A program made the position numbers and the translations under genes. A DNA stretch of 47,664 bases. Source: a virus. Lineage: Duplodnaviria > Heunggongvirae > Uroviricota > Caudoviricetes. The notes below the pieces were generated by a model. The model was given only the letters and a program-made list of their open reading frames with translations, did not search any database and had not been told where the DNA came from. Where the stretch lies: the IMG/VR virus record IMGVR_UViG_2639762844_000003; one strand, given 5' to 3'. Below, piece after piece: positions 4,756-44,647 of this stretch; the first letter of the stretch is position 1, and each line of letters starts with the position of its first letter.

Positions 4756-4808
4756 ACGGCGGCAGAGCAGTCACGGAGTAAAACTGATACCGCCAAACGT
4801 CACCAGAA
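4756..4808 (-). ncRNA. dicF: DicF-like small RNA (antisense regulator of ftsZ)
   Basis: Minus strand reads TTTCTGGTGACGTTTGGCGGTATCAGTTTTACTCCGTGACTGCTCTGCCGCC followed by a T-run, matching the recalled DicF sequence; lies between the ydfA-like genes and dicB. Confidence 0.55.
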
Positions 4809-10427: not shown

Positions 10428-10892
10428 TAGAAGGTTAGCTTGTGTCGGACTTTGCGTATTAAATGACTAGTGGTTGAGCCCCATTTCCACAGAAAAAATC
10501 AGAGAAACTATACCCAATAGTTGTATTGAATCACTGACGAGACAGCCTCATATTCATCAGGACTGGTGTACGTCCAATACAGGAGGTTGTGGTGCTGGTT
10601 CTCAAATGTGCGCTGGCTATTACGGCTGTAATGGCGATTTATTGTCTTGCTATTGTTCTTATGGATCGCCTTTCTGACTGATTTCACATTGGCGAGGTAA
10701 CGGTAGTTAAGTAGAATGGCTGCGGGTGCTTGAGGCTATCTGCCTCGGGCATGAACACCAACGGCAGATAGAGAAAAGCCCCAGTTAACATTACGCGTCC
10801 TGCAAGACGCTTAACATTAATCTGAGGCCAATTTCATGCTAGACACATGTAGGTTAGCCTCTTACGTGCCGAAAGGCAAGGAGAAGCAGGCT

Positions 10893-11048
10893 ATGAAGCA
10901 GCAAAAGGCGATGTTAATCGCCCTGATCGTCATCTGTTTAACCGTCATAGTGACGGCACTGGTAACGAGGAAAGACCTCTGCGAGGTACGAATCCGAACC
11001 GGGCAGACGGAGGTCGCTGTCTTCACAGCTTACGAACCTGAGGAGTAA
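10893..11048 (+). CDS. hok: Hok/Gef-family type I toxin (membrane-depolarising peptide)
   Basis: 51-aa product MKQQKAMLIALIVICLTVIVTALVTRKDLCEVRIRTGQTEVAVFTAYEPEE, near-identical in pattern to Gef/HokC; in-frame upstream ATG at 10836 is mok-like. Confidence 0.8.
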   Translation: MKQQKAMLIALIVICLTVIVTALVTRKDLCEVRIRTGQTEVAVFTAYEPEE

Positions 11049-14260: not shown

Positions 14261-14336
14261 GGTCCTTTAGCTCAGTGGTGAGAGCGAGCGACTCATAATC
14301 GCCAGGTCGCTGGTTCAAATCCAGCAAGGGCCACCA
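14261..14336 (+). tRNA. tRNA with CAU anticodon (Met, or Ile2 ileZ-like)
   Basis: Cloverleaf read by hand: 7-bp acceptor stem, GCTCAGTGG D-arm, CAU anticodon loop, GGTTCAAATCC T-arm, 3' ACCA. Confidence 0.85.
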
Positions 14337-14441
14337 TCACAAACCGCCATGAGCTTATCAGGAAGAGCAGACGACACGATAACAGGGTTGTTGGTGCGGG
14401 GGGGGGGCGGGTCCCCGATGGCGGTCCATTATCGGTATTCA

Positions 14442-14518
14442 GCGTTGTTAGCTCAGCCGGACAGAGCAATTGCCTTCTAAGCAATCGGTCACTGGTTCGA
14501 ATCCAGTACAGCGCGCCA
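14442..14518 (+). tRNA. tRNA-Arg (UCU anticodon)
   Basis: Acceptor GCGTTGT/ACAGCGC, D-arm GCTCAGCCGGACAGAGC, anticodon stem ATTGC/GCAAT with loop CTTCTAA, T-arm GGTTCGAATCC, 3' GCCA. Confidence 0.85.
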
Positions 14519-14982: not shown

Positions 14983-15456
14983 ATACATATCTGGATTATC
15001 ACCTGTTACGGTAAAAAGTGATTGCTTACTGTTTTTGTGAATGGCATTGCAGCAGCCGGATAATGTCAGTGCTGGCTGACGGTGTGCTGGTGGCGGGTGT
15101 GGTGGTTGTTGCTTTCCCGTTGCTGAAAAAGAAAACGCCAGACTGTTAGCCGGGTATCAGTTAGCGGGAGAAATTTTTAAATACTTCACAATTCAGGCGG
15201 TTGACTGTTCTCTGGTTTGCGGGGAGTTTGTTAAAAGAAACTGGCATGGTGAATCCCCCTGTGCGGAGGGGCAATCAGCGAGTAGGTATATGGGATAATC
15301 GCGGATTCAGGTGCTGGTACTGAATTCACCGGGAGGCACCCGGCACCATGCACTTCAATAGATTCTCTCCACATTATGGATATTCTTTCAGAATATCCCA
15401 CGCAGACTTTGTGTAAATGTTAACAAATGTGCGTTTTATTTGATCTGATTCGCTGT

Positions 15457-16961: not shown

Positions 16962-17306
16962 ATGACTCAAAAATATGAACTGATTGTGAAAGGGATCCGC
17001 AATTTTGAGAATAAAGTTACGGTAACTTTAGCGTTACGGGACAAAGAACGCTTTGACGGTGAAATTTTTGACCTGGACATCTCGCTGGACCGTGTTGAAG
17101 GTGCCGCGCTGGAGTTTTATGAGGCAGCAGCCAGAAGGAGCATCAGACAGGTCTTCCTGGATGTTGCTGCCGGGTTATGTGAAGGGGATGAGCTGTCGCC
17201 GGAAAAGCGCCCCATAATTTTAGAGGCGCAGAATGTGTGGATAACCTACAAAGGAAAGCTACCGGGAAGAATTACTGGTTCTCTGAAGACTCCGCCGAAA
17301 TGGTAA
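16962..17306 (+). CDS. YdfR-like protein between holin and endolysin
   Basis: 114-aa ORF directly after the holin, as ydfR sits between essQ and rrrQ in Qin. Confidence 0.55.
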   Translation: MTQKYELIVKGIRNFENKVTVTLALRDKERFDGEIFDLDISLDRVEGAALEFYEAAARRSIRQVFLDVAAGLCEGDELSPEKRPIILEAQNVWITYKGKLPGRITGSLKTPPKW

Positions 17307-17476: not shown

Positions 17477-18624
<1,148 letters not shown>

Positions 18625-18902
18625 TATGGCACCTGTGTTGTTCTGAGGTGAGCATATCACCTCTGTTCAGGTGGCCAAATTCAGTAAACCACTTCAAATG
18701 CCAGATATGAAAATGCGACAGTAAGGGCATTTACATCATCCCGAAGCTTGGAAATGCAGTCGAGCAACTCCTGTAGAGAAATGGTGCTATTGTCCATAAA
18801 CAATCCTCTCTATTGTATTTAACTATTCCTTGCCTGATTCAACAGGCCGGGACAGATAAACATATCCAGGGTTCAGAAACCGATAAATCCTGATAAATAT
18901 CC

Positions 18903-19445
18903 ATGAACGTAAAAATCAGATACGGCCTGTCGGCTGCCGTTCTGGCACTGATTGCCGTCGGTGCGCCTGCGCCTGATATTCTCGACCAGTTTCTGAATGA
19001 AAAAGAAGGTAACCACACAACGGCATACCGCGATGGTTCCGGCATCTGGACCATCTGTCGGGGTGCCACGGTGGTGGATGGAAAACCCGTTTTTCCCGGT
19101 ATGAAACTGTCGAAGGAAAAATGCGACCAGGTTAACGCCATTGAACGGGATAAGGCGCTGGCATGGGTGGAGCGCAATATTAAAGTGCCACTGACCGAAC
19201 CACAGAAAGCGGGTATAGCGTCATTTTGTCCCTATAACATTGGCCCCGGTAAGTGTTTCCCGTCGACGTTTTATAAGCGGCTGAATGCCGATGATCGTAA
19301 GGGGGCATGCGAGGCGATTCGCTGGTGGATAAAAGATGGTGGGCGTGATTGCCGCCTGACAAAAGGGCAGAAGAATGGCTGTTATGGGCAGGTCGAGCGG
19401 CGCGATCAGGAAAGCGCACTGGCGTGCTGGGGGCTGGAGCAATGA
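18903..19445 (+). CDS. SAR endolysin (phage-21 R-type lysozyme)
   Basis: N-terminal signal-anchor-release segment (GLSAAVLALIAVGAPA) followed by the E-D-T catalytic triad context EGNHTTAYRDGSGIWTICRG. Confidence 0.85.
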   Translation: MNVKIRYGLSAAVLALIAVGAPAPDILDQFLNEKEGNHTTAYRDGSGIWTICRGATVVDGKPVFPGMKLSKEKCDQVNAIERDKALAWVERNIKVPLTEPQKAGIASFCPYNIGPGKCFPSTFYKRLNADDRKGACEAIRWWIKDGGRDCRLTKGQKNGCYGQVERRDQESALACWGLEQ

Positions 19446-19978
19446 AAATTAATCCGGATCTTATAGGCGTTGTCGTTATTGCTGGCCTTTCGGTCGCTCT
19501 CGTCAAGAGTTGCTCTCACGCCAGTAATCTTCAGAGCGATAACGACGTTCTGCGAAGTGACAACTCTATGCTGGGGCAGGTAATCGCCACCCAGGCATTC
19601 AACTTCAATCGATTCAATCAGGTTGCAGAACATGCCAACAGTCTTAACTCCCTGATCGACACCAGCACCGAAAAAACCGTAATCGAATACCGGGAGATTC
19701 TCCGCCGTGAAAAAACCTGTGATCTGCCTGTTCCTGCTGATATCGCTGGTGGGTTGCTCGAATACACGTACCGTTTACGTGCCAGCGCCATGCACACCGA
19801 TACCGGCAGACCTAATGAAGCCTATGATCGTACCGCTACCACCAGCTCAATGACCTACTGCCAAGCTGTCTTGTGGATTAAGCCGCTACTGGCGTTGATA
19901 GAAAAAGGAAATAATAATTTTTCGAGTATTCGTGAAATTGATGAGTTGCGTTACAGACCATCTGAGCATGGCCAGTAA
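19442..19978 (+). CDS. Rz i-spanin
   Basis: 178-aa product with N-terminal transmembrane segment; start overlaps the endolysin stop (ATGA). Confidence 0.8.
   Translation: MKINPDLIGVVVIAGLSVALVKSCSHASNLQSDNDVLRSDNSMLGQVIATQAFNFNRFNQVAEHANSLNSLIDTSTEKTVIEYREILRREKTCDLPVPADIAGGLLEYTYRLRASAMHTDTGRPNEAYDRTATTSSMTYCQAVLWIKPLLALIEKGNNNFSSIREIDELRYRPSEHGQ
19707..19853 (+). CDS. Rz1 o-spanin lipoprotein, embedded in the +1 frame of Rz
   Basis: Hand-translated 48-codon ORF (GTG start): KKPVICLFLLISLVGC SNTRTVYVPAPCTPIPADLMKPMIVPLPPAQ, with lipobox LVGC and a Pro-rich mature part. Confidence 0.65.
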   Translation: MKKPVICLFLLISLVGCSNTRTVYVPAPCTPIPADLMKPMIVPLPPAQ

Positions 19979-20052
19979 GGTTGCAGGAAATTTAAAATCT
20001 GGCGATGAAATTTAATATTAGAAATTCATTGCCTAGTGAGATTAATAATGGG

Positions 20053-20095
20053 CATCCCTTTGTGACGATAAGCTTTAACACATTCACAAAGGGAT
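20053..20095. terminator. Bidirectional hairpin between Rz and the minus-strand cargo gene
   Basis: ATCCCTTTGTGA-N18-TCACAAAGGGAT, a 12-bp inverted repeat with A/T-rich flanks on both sides. Confidence 0.5.
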
Positions 20096-20146
20096 ATTTA
20101 ATATAGGGTGGTTAATTCCCACTTGCTGTGGTGTTTAGGGGGTAAT

Positions 20147-20839
20147 TCAAATCTTATCTAACTCATTATAGGCTTCGATAATAAAAATTCTGATTTTAAT
20201 AAGGCATGATTCAATGAAAGGAATTACTTCATGGTCATTCCCATGGAATCTTATTTTTTTCTCTTCGGTAATGACTATGTTTAAAGGTACACCATTACCA
20301 CTTCTTTGTAATTTCCCATTTTCGAAAGTAAAGTCTTCTAATTTTTTGCCATTGATGTGGTTGTTTTTAAAGAGAATTTTTGCTGAGCTTCCTGCTGTGA
20401 TTAAACCAAAACCATCTACGCTCACACTTAGGTCTTTAACAGAACTCTCTTCTCTTAAGGGGATTGGTTGTCTGTGCTTTACTTCATTAGTGAGATTACA
20501 CATCATTTCCAACCAAGATTCGCCAGTGTGATAATCCTGTATAGAAGTAAAAATTTTATATAATGGAGAAGATGATGGTGGGTTTATTTTTAGCGTCTTT
20601 GAGAAAAATTTATCAATAAACTCTTTTTTTCCGTAAGGGAAATATATTTTGGGGCGCTCATCATTACTGCGTGGAGAAATATATTTATCATAGGTATCAT
20701 TAGCGAGATACTCTAAGGAACTTCGTAAGTTTTCCAAAATAGCTTTGACTTTTACAGGCTTGATATGCTGTGTCTGTCTCATTATGTCAAGACTTTCTTC
20801 AACTTCTTGCAATAAGTCCAACGAGCCTTCTCTAGACAT
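20147..20839 (-). CDS. AT-rich cargo protein, 230 aa, unknown function
   Basis: GGAGAA Shine-Dalgarno 8 nt before the ATG at 20839; opposite strand to the late operon; AT-rich codon usage; no recognisable motif. Confidence 0.6.
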   Translation of the reverse strand: MSREGSLDLLQEVEESLDIMRQTQHIKPVKVKAILENLRSSLEYLANDTYDKYISPRSNDERPKIYFPYGKKEFIDKFFSKTLKINPPSSSPLYKIFTSIQDYHTGESWLEMMCNLTNEVKHRQPIPLREESSVKDLSVSVDGFGLITAGSSAKILFKNNHINGKKLEDFTFENGKLQRSGNGVPLNIVITEEKKIRFHGNDHEVIPFIESCLIKIRIFIIEAYNELDKI

Positions 20840-21224
20840 ACAGGTAATTCTCCTTTATGAATTTTCAACATGTTATAACTAATAATATATTTATCATATA
20901 ACTGTATGAATAAATTGTGAGATTAGTAATGCAAGTTTCTATCCATAGTGTTCTCTAAGTACCCGCTTCCATCATGTTGTTACGGACGGTATGGCTAAAA
21001 CAAAGCACCTGAAGTTAAACGTTCTGAACTTTATGCTCGTTGAGCATATGAATTATCTGTAACCCGATGCGCTGGTTGTGGTTCACATTGATGGTCGTAA
21101 TCAGCAGCGGTGGTGCCTGATGGCATGCAACTTCTTACTTATAAAACTTCGTATGGAATTGTTGCCATAACGAGCCCAGCTTAGCAGTTTTTAATGGGTC
21201 CTCCCGGCAGTGTGTCCTGCCACG

Positions 21225-21236
21225 GGGCGGGAGCGT
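21225..21236. other. Candidate cosN cohesive-end site
   Basis: GGGCGGGAGCGTCGCGG resembles lambda cosN (GGGCGGCGACCTCGCGG) and lies about 185 bp upstream of the small terminase start, the lambda cos-to-Nu1 distance. Confidence 0.4.
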
Positions 21237-21410
21237 CGCGGAAAAAGGCTAGTTTTTGAAATTTCATTCGTCATCACCACTACTGTAATGTATTGATATT
21301 ACAGTGGTTTTATTTTTGTGGTGTCGATTTTGATTGTTTTTTGTTCATCACTAACACCGTTTGCCTAAAGTTGTTCGCAAGATGCATGTTTAAAACATTC
21401 TGGAGCGGGT

Positions 21411-21905
21411 ATGGATCGAGAGTTAAAAAATCTGACGCTGAATATCAGTCAACTGGCGGCTCTGTCAGGTGTACATCGCCAGACTGCTGCGGCAAGGCTG
21501 CAAAATCTACCCGTTGCAGGGGGGCATGAAAGCAACCTCAAGCTTTATCGGGTGGTTGATATTGTGTCGGCATTTCTGGCATTACCACCGCCGGTTGCAG
21601 AAGGCGAAATGGACGCGCATGAGCGCAAAGCCTGGTATCAGTCTGAACGTGAGCGTCTTAAGTTCGAACAGGAAACGGCACAACTCATTCCGGCCAGTGA
21701 TGTCAGACGGGAGTTTGCCATCTGGGCAAAAGCGGTCGTGCAGGTGCTGGAGACATTACCGGATATTCTTGAACGTGACTGCGGTCTGCAGCCTGCCGCT
21801 GTGAGCCGTGTTCAGTCCATTATTGATGATCTGCGCGATCAGATAGCCCTGCGGGTGACCGAAGCAGGTGCGGATGATGAGGAGGAATTACAGCGGGAGG
21901 AGTAA
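21411..21905 (+). CDS. Terminase small subunit (Nu1-like)
   Basis: 164-aa ORF with N-terminal HTH (LNISQLAALSGVHRQTAAARL) directly upstream of the large terminase. Confidence 0.75.
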   Translation: MDRELKNLTLNISQLAALSGVHRQTAAARLQNLPVAGGHESNLKLYRVVDIVSAFLALPPPVAEGEMDAHERKAWYQSERERLKFEQETAQLIPASDVRREFAIWAKAVVQVLETLPDILERDCGLQPAAVSRVQSIIDDLRDQIALRVTEAGADDEEELQREE

Positions 21906-24007
21906 TGCTGAATCAGGAAACCGCAAAGGCAGCACGAACCGATTCAGGTTATATCCTTCGCGCACCGAGACGAATGCGGGTTGCTGATGCCGTTGCTCAG
22001 TATATGCGGGTGCCCATGGGGGCAGGGAACTCAGTCCCGTGGGATCCGCTGGTGGCACCGTATGTTATTGAGCCGATGAACTGCCTGGCCTCGCGTGAAT
22101 ACGACGCAGTGATATTTGTTGGCCCGGCACGAACCGGCAAGACTATCGGCCTGATTGACGGCTGGGTGATTTACAACGTGATTTGCGATCCTGCTGATAT
22201 GCTGATCATACAGATGACGGAGGAAAAAGCCCGCGAACACTCCAAAAAACGACTCGCCAGAACGTTTCGCGTCAGCCCGGAAGTGGTCAGTCGCCTGAGT
22301 CCGAACAAAAATGACAACAACGTTTATGACAGAACATTCCTTGCTGGTAACTACCTGAAAATCGGCTGGCCGTCAGTCAATATCATGTCCTCATCAGATT
22401 ATAAATGCGTCGCGCTGACGGATTATGACCGTTTTCCGGAAGATATTGATGGCGAGGGGGATGCTTTCTCTCTTGCCTCAAAACGTACCACAACATTTAT
22501 GTCCAGTGGTATGACGCTTGTGGAGAGTTCCCCCGGCAGGGATGTGAAGGATGTGAAATGGCGACGGACTTCACCGCATGAGGCTCCACCAACCACGGGG
22601 ATACTGTCGCTCTATAACCGTGGCGATCGCCGTCGCTGGTACTGGCCTTGTCCACACTGTGGTGAGTATTTTCAGCCCTGCGGCGATGTGGTTGCTGGTT
22701 TCCGTGATATTGCCGATCCCGTGCTGGCAAGTGAGGCGGCTTATATTCAGTGTCCTTCCTGTTCAGGACGGATTATGCCTGAACAAAAACGTGAGCTGAA
22801 CGGACGTGGGGTCTGGTTGCGGGATGGTGAATCCATCAATGCGGATGGCAGTCGTTATGGTGATCCCCGACGCTCACGTATTGCGTCATTCTGGATGGAG
22901 GGTCCGGCAGCTGCTTACCAGACACTCTCGCAACTCGTTTACAAACTGCTTACTGCAGAACAGGAATACGAGACAACCGGAAGTGAAGAAACACTCAAGA
23001 CGGTTATCAATACCGACTGGGGATTACCTTATCTTCCCCGCGCCAGCATGGAGCAACGAAAAAGTGAACTGCTTGAGCAGCGGGCAGAGCCAGTTCCTTC
23101 CCGCAGTGTGCCGGATGGCGTTAATTTCCTTGTGGCGACAGTGGATGTGCAGGCGGGACGTCATCGCCGTTTTGTGGTTCAGGTAACGGGCTATGGCAGC
23201 CGTGGCGAACGCTGGATTATTGATCGTTACAACATCACGCAGTCATTGCGCGGTGACAGCGACGGGGAGAGCCAGCGAATTGATCCGGCCAGCTATCCGG
23301 AAGACTGGGATGTCCTGCTGACGGATGTTTTTCATAAAAGCTGGCCGCTGGCCTCCGATCCTTCTCAACAAATGCGACTGATGGCAATGGCGGTGGACTC
23401 CGGCGGTGAAGACGGGGTCACTGATAATGCCTATAAATTCTGGCGTCGTTGCCGTCGTGATGGCCTTGGTAAACGTATTTACCTGTTTAAGGGCGACAGC
23501 ATCCGGCGCGCAAAACTGATCACCCGTACATTCCCTGATAACACCGGACGAACGGGCCGACGGGCGCAGGCCGCAGGTGATGTGCCGCTCTGGCTTCTTC
23601 AGACGGATGCACTGAAAGACCGGGTGAATAACGCGTTATGGCGTGACTCGCCAGGTCCCGGCTATGTGCATTTCCCTGACTGGCTGGGGAGTTGGTTTTA
23701 CGACGAACTGACGTATGAAGAGCGGAGCAGTGACGGGAAATGGAGTAAGCCAGGTCGCGGTGCCAACGAAGCTTTTGACCTGATGGTGTATGCCGAGGCT
23801 CTGGTCATTCTGCATGGATACGAAAAGATCCGCTGGCCGGATGCACCGGAGTGGGCGAGCCGGGAAACCTGGCTGGAGTGTGTCCCGGACAGTACCGAAC
23901 CGTCACCCACACCGGAACCGGTATCCACGCCTGTTAAAAAACAAAAACGGAAGAAAACAGTAACTGACGATGTTAACCCCTGGCTGACTTCCGGAGGATG
24001 GTTATGA
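21905..24007 (+). CDS. Terminase large subunit (gpA-like)
   Basis: 700-aa ORF with Walker A-like GPARTGKT; start overlaps the small-subunit stop. Confidence 0.9.
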   Translation: MLNQETAKAARTDSGYILRAPRRMRVADAVAQYMRVPMGAGNSVPWDPLVAPYVIEPMNCLASREYDAVIFVGPARTGKTIGLIDGWVIYNVICDPADMLIIQMTEEKAREHSKKRLARTFRVSPEVVSRLSPNKNDNNVYDRTFLAGNYLKIGWPSVNIMSSSDYKCVALTDYDRFPEDIDGEGDAFSLASKRTTTFMSSGMTLVESSPGRDVKDVKWRRTSPHEAPPTTGILSLYNRGDRRRWYWPCPHCGEYFQPCGDVVAGFRDIADPVLASEAAYIQCPSCSGRIMPEQKRELNGRGVWLRDGESINADGSRYGDPRRSRIASFWMEGPAAAYQTLSQLVYKLLTAEQEYETTGSEETLKTVINTDWGLPYLPRASMEQRKSELLEQRAEPVPSRSVPDGVNFLVATVDVQAGRHRRFVVQVTGYGSRGERWIIDRYNITQSLRGDSDGESQRIDPASYPEDWDVLLTDVFHKSWPLASDPSQQMRLMAMAVDSGGEDGVTDNAYKFWRRCRRDGLGKRIYLFKGDSIRRAKLITRTFPDNTGRTGRRAQAAGDVPLWLLQTDALKDRVNNALWRDSPGPGYVHFPDWLGSWFYDELTYEERSSDGKWSKPGRGANEAFDLMVYAEALVILHGYEKIRWPDAPEWASRETWLECVPDSTEPSPTPEPVSTPVKKQKRKKTVTDDVNPWLTSGGWL

Positions 24008-44066: not shown

Positions 44067-44647
44067 TGGCATTCAGAATGAGTGAACAACCACGGACCAT
44101 AAAAATTTATAATCTGCTGGTCGGAACTAATGAATTTATTGGTGAAGGTGACGCATATATTCCGCCTCATACAGGTCTGCCAGCAAACAGTACCGATATT
44201 GCACCACCAGATATTCCTGCTGGCTTTGTGGCTGTTTTCAACAGTGATGAGGCATCGTGGCATCTCGTTGAAGACCATCGGGGTAAAACGGTTTATGACG
44301 TGGCTTCCGGCGACGCGTTATTTATTTCTGAACTCGGCTCATTACCGGAAAATGTCACCTGGTTATCCCCGGAAGGGGAGTTTCAGAAGTGGAACGGCAC
44401 AGCCTGGGTGAAAGATGCAGAAGCAGAAAAACTATTCCGGATCCGGGAGGCGGAAGAAACAAAAAACAGCCTGATGCAGGCAGCGAATGAGCATATTGCG
44501 CCACTTCAGGATGCTGTAGATCTGGAAATCGCAACGGAGGAAGAAAACTCGTTGCTGGAAGCCTGGAAAAAGTATCGGGTGTTGCTGAACCGTGTTAATA
44601 CAACAACTGCACCGGATATTGAATGGCCAGTAGCACCTATAGGGTAA
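44066..44647 (+). CDS. tfa: Tail fibre assembly protein (Tfa-like)
   Basis: 193-aa ORF whose start overlaps the stf stop; lambda order. Confidence 0.85.

What the first reader, a model, noticed from the sequence alone, without database searches (positions are those of the whole stretch)
19979..21410. Opposite-strand AT-rich gene between Rz and cos, in the position of lambda bor
The 230-aa ORF (20147-20839, minus) has a good Shine-Dalgarno, AT-biased codons, and no motif I can assign. It is transcribed against the late operon and is separated from Rz by a 12-bp perfect inverted repeat (20053-20095) that could terminate both ways. In lambda this slot holds the lysogenic-conversion gene bor. Such genes are expressed from the prophage and often encode exclusion, defence or virulence functions.
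Basis: partly seen in the sequence, partly recalled or inferred. Interest (0 to 1): 0.65.

Follow-up and report, generated by a model that had tools for sequence, protein, structure and literature searches.

The report
Unnamed HEPN-like gene carried by prophages
Between the lysis genes and the packaging site of this E. coli prophage sits a real, strongly conserved, backwards-facing gene from a large uncharacterised protein family that looks like a variant RNA-cutting (HEPN) enzyme and is a reasonable but untested candidate for a prophage-encoded anti-phage defence.

Summary
A 230-aa ORF (20147-20839, minus strand) has 33.8% GC against about 54% in its neighbours, an AAGGAG ribosome-binding site and a perfect 12-bp inverted repeat downstream. 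It lies between Rz/Rz1 and cosN, the slot that bor occupies in lambda.

It is a real gene (dN/dS 0.07-0.13) from a large unannotated family: 1046 clusters at 50% identity, with no Pfam, NCBIfam or PADLOC match and only a PHROG of unknown function. It has no conserved neighbour.

In E. coli, Enterobacter, Citrobacter, Cronobacter and Raoultella it lies between the spanin and packaging genes, antisense to the late operon. In Vibrio and Pseudomonas prophages it is antisense at other positions. It also occurs in genomic islands and one cassette array.

Best reading (confidence about 0.35): a stand-alone, lysogen-expressed HEPN-like RNase acting in abortive infection. It is not Bor-like. Function is untested.

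The parts
20147..20839 (-). 230-aa ORF, a member of a large unannotated family (HEPN-like four-helix bundle with an inserted beta-sandwich)
20474..20491 (-). Codons T117-N118-E-V-K121-H122: a variant of the HEPN R-[NDH]-x3-H motif that lacks the arginine, at the C-terminal end of helix 109-123
   Evidence: Among 154 sequences: H122 in 154, K121 in 153, N118 in 144, T117 in 113. Motif position per Anantharaman 2013.
20696..20746 (-). Codons K32-D48: the conserved polar face of helix 2 (K32, E36, R39, S40, D/E43, Y44, D48)
   Evidence: Conservation. Helix 28-53 in the model.
20246..20458 (-). Codons 128-198: beta-sandwich inserted between the motif helix and the last helix; no known structural relative
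20850..20855 (-). Shine-Dalgarno AAGGAG, 10 nt upstream of the ATG
   Evidence: Read. An AAAGG/AGGAG-type element is present in the homologous loci.
20872..20877 (-). -10-like hexamer TATAAC within the conserved block TAGnTATAA(C/G)ATG; putative promoter of the gene
   Evidence: The block is shared by otherwise diverged upstream regions of E. coli, Enterobacter, Cronobacter and related viral-contig loci. Function not shown.
20054..20095 (.). Perfect 12-bp inverted repeat with an 18-nt loop, 52 nt after the ORF stop and 76 nt after the Rz stop; likely the 3' end or terminator of the cassette
   Evidence: Most homologous loci have a strong hairpin after the stop, each with a different sequence. 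No U-tract, and not called by the scan.
20929..21196 (+). Decayed 5' remnant (in-frame stops) of a 485-aa gene that is intact and divergent from the family gene in Enterobacter prophages
   Evidence: tblastn 42-52% identity over residues 21-90 with stop codons. The intact gene is in L041, L072, L075 and L079.
21225..21236 (+). cosN-like cohesive-end sequence GGGCGGGAGCGT; right boundary of the variable slot
   Evidence: Records of phages cdtI and Tritos start at this position. Resemblance to the lambda left end is from my own knowledge.
19442..19978 (+). Rz-like i-spanin gene with the embedded Rz1-like lipoprotein ORF 19707-19853; left boundary of the slot
   Evidence: embedded ORF with an LVGC lipobox. 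Annotated as hypothetical in RefSeq.

Best explanation
The ORF is a stand-alone accessory gene (a 'moron') carried by temperate phages. It has its own promoter and a 3' hairpin, and it faces against the late operon so that it can be expressed from the repressed prophage.

Its product is a soluble protein of about 26.5 kDa built on a HEPN-type four-helix bundle. The conserved cluster R39 / Y44 / D48 (helix 2), Q101 and N118 / K121 / H122 (end of helix 3) is inferred to form a metal-independent RNase site. In that site the canonical HEPN arginine is replaced by Thr, and R39 or K121 would take over its role.

The 70-residue beta-sandwich inserted directly after the motif is inferred to be a sensor or autoinhibitory module. 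On infection by another phage the enzyme would be released and cut host or phage RNA, aborting the infection and protecting the lysogen population.

Shown: gene reality, family size, solo status, prophage and antisense context, fold class, and the conserved residue constellation.

Inferred: expression in lysogens, RNase chemistry, activation by phage, and defence.
For: Gene and family:
- Strong purifying selection, dN/dS 0.07-0.13.
- Present in 102 of 5426 complete E. coli genomes, one copy each, while the adjacent cos flank occurs in 2108 genomes. The slot is therefore polymorphic.
- 1046 clusters at 50% identity match the family profile at E <= 0.001. Almost all of the 150 best listed are 215-250 aa.
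- No conserved neighbour in 31 diverse loci. Flanking intergenic regions are as short as about 110 bp and 6 bp, leaving no room for a partner.

Context:
- In five enterobacterial genera it lies between the spanin and the HNH/TerS or DUF1441 TerS genes, antisense, across two different packaging modules.
- It is also antisense inside Vibrio and Pseudomonas prophages at other positions.
- It occurs in an integrase/resolvase island and in a cassette array with Tae4/Tai4 and Imm33.
- Some neighbours in other phyla are defence genes: AriAB, MzaA, RT_UG29, methyltransferases.

Fold:
- AF2 pLDDT 89.

Topology, compared with the HEPN description in PMC3710099:
- Insert between helices 2 and 3: present.
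- Motif at the end of helix 3: present.
- Polar residue after the R position: N118.
- Conserved acidic and basic residues on helix 2: present.
- Precedent for families that lack R but keep H: Parep1/8.
- Precedent for a beta insert right after the motif: Csx1.

H122 is invariant and K121 nearly so (153 of 154); R39, N118, Y44 and Q101 are nearly invariant among 154 sequences.
Against: - No sequence-profile link to any HEPN family. Pfam, NCBIfam and PADLOC give nothing for 57 diverse members. PDB profile searches give nothing. hhalign against RnlA gives nothing.
- Foldseek against the PDB has no hit below E 0.06, and HepT reaches only probability 0.4-0.5.
- The defining arginine of Rx4-6H is absent.
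- I could not see residue-level structural alignments or 3D distances, so the clustering of the conserved residues is inferred from helix periodicity only.
- There are no expression, toxicity or phage-challenge data.
- The sequence is not in the held supplements of DefensePredictor, some of which were cut when stored.
- Many non-prophage neighbours are housekeeping genes.
Confidence: 0.35

Rival explanations
1. It is a non-catalytic helical-bundle protein that binds a protein or nucleic acid of an incoming phage or of the host. It would be a superinfection-exclusion or regulatory factor expressed from the prophage and would act by sequestration rather than RNA cleavage.
For: - The canonical HEPN arginine is missing.
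- HEPN domains without the full motif are described as binding domains.
- There is no profile link to catalytic HEPN families.
- The moron context is the same as for the best explanation.
Against: - H122 is invariant and K121, R39, N118 and Q101 are nearly invariant across phyla. These positions are far more conserved than the rest of the protein, including the beta insert. That pattern is typical of chemistry rather than of a co-evolving binding surface.
- The paper says inactive versions lack conserved charged or polar residues.
Confidence: 0.25
2. It is an enzyme of a different chemistry that merely shares a four-helix scaffold, for example one acting on nucleotides, NAD-like molecules or a phage DNA modification. 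It would still be an accessory or defence gene.
For: - The conserved set K32 / R39 / Y44 / D48 / Q101 / N118 / K121 / H122 is richer than the usual HEPN set.
- The beta insert is novel.
Against: [quoted passage not shown]
- No match to any other enzyme family was found.
Confidence: 0.15
3. It is a lysogenic-conversion or virulence factor acting on the host's interaction with an animal, that is, a functional analogue of Bor.
For: - It occupies the same slot and orientation as lambda bor (position; lambda map from my own knowledge).
- Several carrier strains are APEC, ETEC or clinical isolates.
Against: - No signal peptide or lipobox, a soluble cytoplasmic-type protein, and no Lambda_Bor match.
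- Family members occur in marine and soil Vibrio, Marinobacter, Flavobacteriia, Deinococcales, Planctomycetota and Bacillus plasmids.
Confidence: 0.07
4. It serves the phage itself during lytic growth, as a counter-defence or host-takeover factor, or it is the toxin of a toxin-antitoxin pair whose antitoxin has not been recognised.
For: - HEPN toxins commonly pair with antitoxins (PDB hits HepT-MNT and LsoA-Dmd).
- Neisseria homologues overlap an ABC-type ATPase gene by 4 bp.
Against: - It is antisense to the late operon in every prophage examined.
- There is no tblastn match in 50,697 isolated phage genomes.
- No partner is conserved outside Neisseria, and the intergenic regions are too short for one.
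- It also occurs outside phages.
Confidence: 0.1

Closest known systems
HEPN superfamily RNases (HepT/DUF86, RnlA/LsoA, Csm6/Csx1, Abi2/AbiV and similar; Anantharaman et al. 2013, PMC3710099)
   Same: - Insert between helices 2 and 3.
- Invariant His at the end of helix 3, preceded at -4 by Asn.
- Conserved acidic and basic residues on helix 2.
- Frequent role of the superfamily in abortive infection and on mobile elements.
   Different: - The Arg of Rx4-6H is replaced by Thr (T-N-x-x-K-H).
- A 70-residue beta-sandwich, rather than a loop or hairpin, follows the motif.
- No HMM or profile match to any described HEPN family.
- No partner gene.
Lambda bor (lysogenic-conversion lipoprotein gene between Rz and cos)
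   Same: Same genomic slot, same antisense orientation to the late operon, and the same logic of expression from the prophage (position; lambda map from my own knowledge).
   Different: No sequence or family relation. Bor is a small secreted lipoprotein; this is a 230-aa soluble protein without a signal peptide.
Single-gene prophage-borne abortive-infection proteins (for example BstA, PMC8585504; the lactococcal AbiV/AbiD type)
   Same: A stand-alone gene on a prophage, transcribed independently of the lytic programme, and predicted to act on superinfecting phages (context).
   Different: No homology to BstA or to any PADLOC model. No experimental phenotype.
Phage 'morons' (independent transcription units inserted between conserved phage genes; concept of Hendrix and colleagues, from my own knowledge)
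   Same: - Atypical base composition.
- Insertion between two conserved modules (lysis and packaging).
- Putative own promoter and a 3' hairpin.
- Present in only about 5% of prophages that share the same cos flank.
   Different: None in kind. This is an instance of the class with an uncharacterised cargo.

Membership tests
HEPN superfamily | Four-helix up-down bundle made of two alpha-hairpins, closest in structure to known HEPN domains | tested here: inconclusive
   [not shown]
HEPN superfamily | Variable insert between core helices 2 and 3 | tested here: met
   Residues 54-108 (a loop plus three short helices) lie between helix 28-53 and helix 109-123 in the model. This feature is described.
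HEPN superfamily | Rx4-6H motif at the end of helix 3, with a polar residue (N/D/H) after R | tested here: not met
   The position reads T117-N118-x-x-K121-H122. H is present in 154 of 154 sequences and N in 144, but R is absent (T 113, N 14, V 14, S 5). An R-less, H-retaining precedent exists in Parep1/8. The canonical motif is not met, so this is at most a variant.
HEPN superfamily | Sequence-profile similarity to a described HEPN family | tested here: not met
   No Pfam, NCBIfam or PADLOC hit for the query or for 57 diverse members. hhalign against RnlA gives probability about 0.1%. HHpred against full libraries was not available.
HEPN superfamily | Metal-independent RNase activity, usually from a dimer with a composite site | not testable with these tools
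   This needs biochemistry or multimer modelling. Only monomer models were possible.
Lambda Bor family | Lipoprotein signal peptide with lipobox, and a match to the Lambda_Bor family | tested here: not met
   No Pfam hit at E <= 10. The N-terminus MSREGSLDLLQEVEE is charged, and the protein is soluble with GRAVY -0.46.
Phage moron | Discrete insertion between conserved phage genes, with deviant composition and presence/absence polymorphism | tested here: met
   GC 33.8% against 54%. The gene is in 102 genomes while the adjacent cos flank is in 2108. Related phages carry other cargo in the slot.
Phage moron | Own promoter and terminator, active in the lysogen | tested here: inconclusive
   A conserved -10-like TATAAC block lies upstream. 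Most homologous loci have a hairpin after the stop, each with a different sequence. There is no -35 match and no U-tract, and there are no expression data.
HEPN-MNT or other type II toxin-antitoxin pair | An adjacent, co-oriented antitoxin gene conserved with the toxin | tested here: not met
   No neighbour is conserved across 31 loci. Flanking intergenic regions are down to about 110 bp and 6 bp.
Catalogued anti-phage defence systems (PADLOC-DB v2) | Match to a model of a known or candidate defence protein | tested here: not met
   No hit for the query. Among 57 members there are only two isolated weak hits.

The most novel reading that the evidence does not exclude
This is the founding member of a new, widespread, single-protein anti-phage system. 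It would be a HEPN-derived nuclease that has lost the canonical arginine and rebuilt its active site with a helix-2 arginine and a Lys-His pair. It would be gated by a previously unseen beta-sandwich sensor, and it would be spread by prophages, islands and cassette arrays across at least five bacterial phyla.
Probability: 0.25. Interest if true: 0.7.

Novelty: new variant of a known kind. Interest (0 to 1): 0.5.

Why it matters
Prophage morons are a proven source of defence genes, but this family is absent from the defence catalogue checked here (PADLOC) and from the Pfam and NCBIfam libraries. It nevertheless has more than a thousand 50%-identity clusters and a recurrent, highly specific placement in prophages.

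If it is an active nuclease, it would show that the HEPN active site can work without its signature arginine. It would also add a new sensor domain to the repertoire of single-protein abortive-infection systems. Finally, it would explain part of the phage-resistance variation among E. coli, Enterobacter and Cronobacter lysogens.

If it has no phenotype, it remains an ordinary hypothetical moron.

Tried and rejected
- Direct family assignment failed. Pfam, NCBIfam and PADLOC gave nothing on the query or on 57 diverse members; PHROGs gave only an unknown-function family.
- Two PDB sequence-profile searches returned only spurious coiled-coil hits.
- Foldseek against the PDB was not significant, and the papillomavirus E2 hits have TM about 0.2. 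The afdb50 library was unavailable.
- Longer family members carry no informative fusion: one DUF6941 tail below threshold, the rest noise.
- A two-gene system with an ABC/AAA_21 ATPase was suggested by the Neisseria loci. I rejected it because it occurs in that lineage only.
- A hidden partner in the 355-bp spacer was rejected. The spacer is a pseudogene remnant, Rfam finds nothing there, and other loci lack the spacer.
- hhalign of the family profile, with and without the insert, against E. coli RnlA gave no signal.
- Literature: the accession is not mentioned anywhere, and the protein is not in the DefensePredictor supplements held.
- Brenes & Laub 2025 could not be read, so I cannot exclude that the gene was tested there. 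Two hotspot searches found nothing relevant.
- A scan of genome contigs with the most diverse alignment failed for lack of conserved stretches and was repeated with A1.

Full report
**1. What is there**

The window is a lambdoid E. coli prophage. Around the finding lie these features:
- a DUF1327/YdfR-like gene at 16962-17306;
- an IS3-family element at 17477-18660;
- a Phage_lysozyme gene at 18903-19445;
- an Rz-like gene at 19442-19978, with an embedded 48-aa ORF bearing an LVGC lipobox (19707-19853);
- a DUF1441 small-terminase-like gene at 21411-21905;
- a gpA-type large terminase at 21905-24007.

Records of related phages (cdtI, Tritos) begin at window 21225. This places cosN at about 21225-21236.

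AAGGAG sits 10 nt upstream of the ATG. The ORF has 33.8% GC and 30.7% GC3, against 54% in the lysozyme and terminase genes.

The inverted repeat is real and perfect: 20054-20065 / 20084-20095, with an 18-nt loop. None of 100 shuffles produced it. It folds at -17 kcal/mol on the + strand and -19 kcal/mol on the - strand, with z-scores of -2.3 and -4.6. It has no U-tract on either side, and the terminator scan did not call it.

**2. It is a real gene of a large, unnamed family**

Pfam, NCBIfam and PADLOC give nothing. PHROGs gives phrog_13652, of unknown function. RefSeq and every other source call it hypothetical.

A word-indexed search found 74 relatives. They range from 97% identity in E. coli to about 30% in Vibrio and metagenomes. 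A profile search of 1.84 billion cluster representatives found 1046 clusters at E <= 0.001 and 502 at E <= 1e-10. Almost all of the 150 best listed are 215-250 aa. Fifty-seven diverse members also lack any Pfam, PADLOC or NCBIfam match.

Pairwise dN/dS between E. coli and other enterobacterial copies is 0.07-0.13. The gene is in 102 of 5426 complete E. coli genomes, one copy each, and one of these copies is interrupted by IS1. The adjacent cos-proximal flank occurs in 2108 genomes. Related phages carry different small genes in the slot. The slot is therefore polymorphic, and this gene is one of its alternative cargoes.

**3. Context across taxa**

In Raoultella, Enterobacter, Citrobacter and Cronobacter genomes, and in the enterobacterial viral contigs of IMG/VR, the gene lies between the spanin/endolysin genes and the packaging genes. 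This holds for all but one or two of the viral contigs. The packaging genes are HNH plus Terminase_4 TerS in HK97-like prophages and DUF1441 TerS in the lambda-like ones. The gene is always antisense to them.

More distant members (25-33% identity) also sit inside prophages and are also antisense to their neighbours, but at other positions:
- in Vibrio harveyi, between the DUF968 gene and genes upstream of the HNH/terminase module;
- in Pseudomonas veronii, in the region between the integrase and the repressor.

Others lie in an integrase/resolvase island (Cupriavidus), in an array of small same-strand cassettes with Tae4/Tai4, Imm33 and transposases (Oleispira), or in plain chromosomal surroundings (Shewanella).

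Thirty-one loci from GTDB species genomes span Proteobacteria, Bacteroidota, Deinococcales, Planctomycetota and one archaeal MAG. Two Bacillus plasmids carry a copy at 32% identity.

No neighbour is conserved. The 515-aa double-ABC ATPase that overlaps the gene by 4 bp is confined to Neisseria. In Citrobacter the next gene starts 6 bp after the stop codon, and in Cronobacter the upstream spacer is about 110 bp. There is no room for a partner.

Among 146 neighbours within three genes, there are phage genes, integrases and some defence genes (AriAB, MzaA, RT_UG29, methyltransferases, MADS components). There are also many housekeeping genes. I could not turn this into a statistic.

No isolated phage genome among 50,697 encodes a relative.

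**4. Cassette anatomy**

Upstream regions of otherwise diverged loci share the block TAGnTATAA(C/G)ATG, 30-40 nt before the start codon. In the window this gives a -10-like TATAAC at 20877-20872 on the minus strand. No good -35 element is present.

Most homologous loci have a strong hairpin (-13 to -32 kcal/mol) within 0-100 nt after the stop codon. The sequences are unrelated from one lineage to the next. This argues that the window's inverted repeat is the 3' end element of the cassette rather than a chance palindrome.

The 355 bp between the ORF and cos are not a regulatory desert. Positions 20929-21196 on the + strand are the decayed 5' end of a 485-aa gene, at 42-52% identity over residues 21-90 with in-frame stops. 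In Enterobacter prophages that gene is intact and transcribed divergently from the family gene.

**5. Structure and residues**

AlphaFold2 with a 31-sequence alignment gives pLDDT 89 and pTM 0.73. The model has these elements:
- helices 3-23 and 28-53;
- a loop with three short helices, residues 54-108;
- helix 109-123;
- an all-beta insert, residues 128-198;
- a final helix, 205-229.

Across 154 sequences the conserved polar residues are K32, E36, R39, S40, D/E43, Y44 and D48 on one face of helix 2. The remaining conserved positions are the YFPYG loop (66-70), Q101, W109, and T117-N118-x-x-K121-H122 at the C-terminal end of helix 109-123.

The HEPN survey (PMC3710099) states the following:
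- the residue after R is usually N, D or H;
- inserts between helices 2 and 3 distinguish HEPN from other four-helix folds;
- a conserved acidic residue on helix 2 lies next to the motif;
- the Parep1/8 family keeps H but lacks R and has other conserved basic residues;
- Csx1 has a beta-hairpin directly after the motif.

The present family matches each of these points, except that R is replaced by Thr. From memory, RnlA also needs a helix-2 arginine (R255) and a glutamate (E258) besides R318/H323. Its sequence reads ...PELRTIEG... and ...ERHSLFH.... This is a lead, not a test: hhalign of the family against RnlA gives no signal.

**6. Interpretation**

The gene is a classic moron in the bor slot, but it is unrelated to Bor. 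It has no signal peptide or lipobox, and it is soluble with pI 6.6.

Several facts fit a lysogen-expressed accessory function directed at other mobile elements better than virulence or a lytic-cycle role:
- it is consistently antisense inside prophages of seven genera;
- it is a solo gene;
- it is spread through islands and cassette arrays;
- it occurs in environmental phyla.

The fold and the invariant N-x2-K-H / R constellation make a HEPN-type RNase the most specific mechanistic proposal. The novel beta-sandwich would then be the candidate sensor or autoinhibitor. Single-protein HEPN defence proteins with an added regulatory domain have recently been validated; one example is DS-11 with a CBS domain (PMC13092281).

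I put the full chain (expressed in lysogens, HEPN-like RNase, abortive-infection defence) at about 0.35. The parts stand higher:
- real stand-alone moron: above 0.9;
- HEPN-superfamily fold: about 0.6;
- some anti-mobile-element role: about 0.5.

**7. Novelty and score**

The family is unannotated in every library I could query, and I found no paper that mentions it. I could not read Brenes & Laub 2025, which screened E. coli prophage genes for defence.

If it is HEPN-derived, it is a new variant of a known kind: an R-less motif, a new inserted domain, and a stand-alone gene. A specialist would find the prophage placement expected and the active-site variant mildly surprising.

Interest is 0.5. 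It is a good, cheap candidate for experimental testing, not yet a discovery.

Noticed in passing
window 17477-18660 (minus strand): An IS3-family element (HTH_Tnp_1 orfA, 112 aa, plus rve orfB, 272 aa) is inserted between the DUF1327/YdfR-like gene and the lysozyme gene. The otherwise identical locus in E. coli ACN001 lacks it, so this copy of the prophage has a split lysis cassette.
   Followed up: partly
window 20929-21196 (+); intact copies at L041:3455-4912(-), L072, L075, L079: Pseudogene remnant of a 485-aa gene with no Pfam match. In Enterobacter prophages the gene is intact and sits divergently next to the family gene in the same lysis-packaging slot. Its N-terminus (…VVVIDDGS…) looks like a GT-A glycosyltransferase by eye; this is unverified.
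   Followed up: partly
window 21279-21308 (+): A 13-pair hairpin followed by TTTATTTTTG lies between cosN (about 21225-21236) and the DUF1441 small-terminase gene. It could be a terminator or part of cosB. The region is conserved in mEp460-type phages.
   Followed up: no
L002-L006, L017, L019, L026 (Neisseria): The Neisseria homologues (29-33% identity) overlap by 4 bp a 515-aa protein with two ABC_tran/AAA_21 domains, in a non-phage chromosomal context. This pairing is not seen in any other lineage.
   Followed up: partly
L096:5971-6663 and L097:3562-4254 (Oleispira metagenome contigs): The homologue lies in a long array of small same-strand genes together with Tae4/Tai4, Imm33-like, RVT fragments and transposases. 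The array resembles an integron-type cassette array.
   Followed up: no
window 10724-10898, 4757-4808(-), 15215-15405, 44409-44607, 14261-14518: Rfam hits elsewhere in the prophage: sok antitoxin RNA, DicF, STnc100 and IS009. Two tRNA genes (Met-CAT, Arg-TCT) lie downstream of the antiterminator region.
   Followed up: no
window 19987-19998, 20007-20018, 20093-20104: Three copies of GAAATTTAA[A/T]AT flank the inverted repeat. They may be chance in AT-rich DNA.
   Followed up: no
collection level: The gene is present in about 2% of complete E. coli genomes and in many Enterobacter prophages. Even so, no relative is found by tblastn in 50,697 isolated phage genomes. The carrier prophages may be rarely induced, rarely isolated, or defective.
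   Followed up: partly
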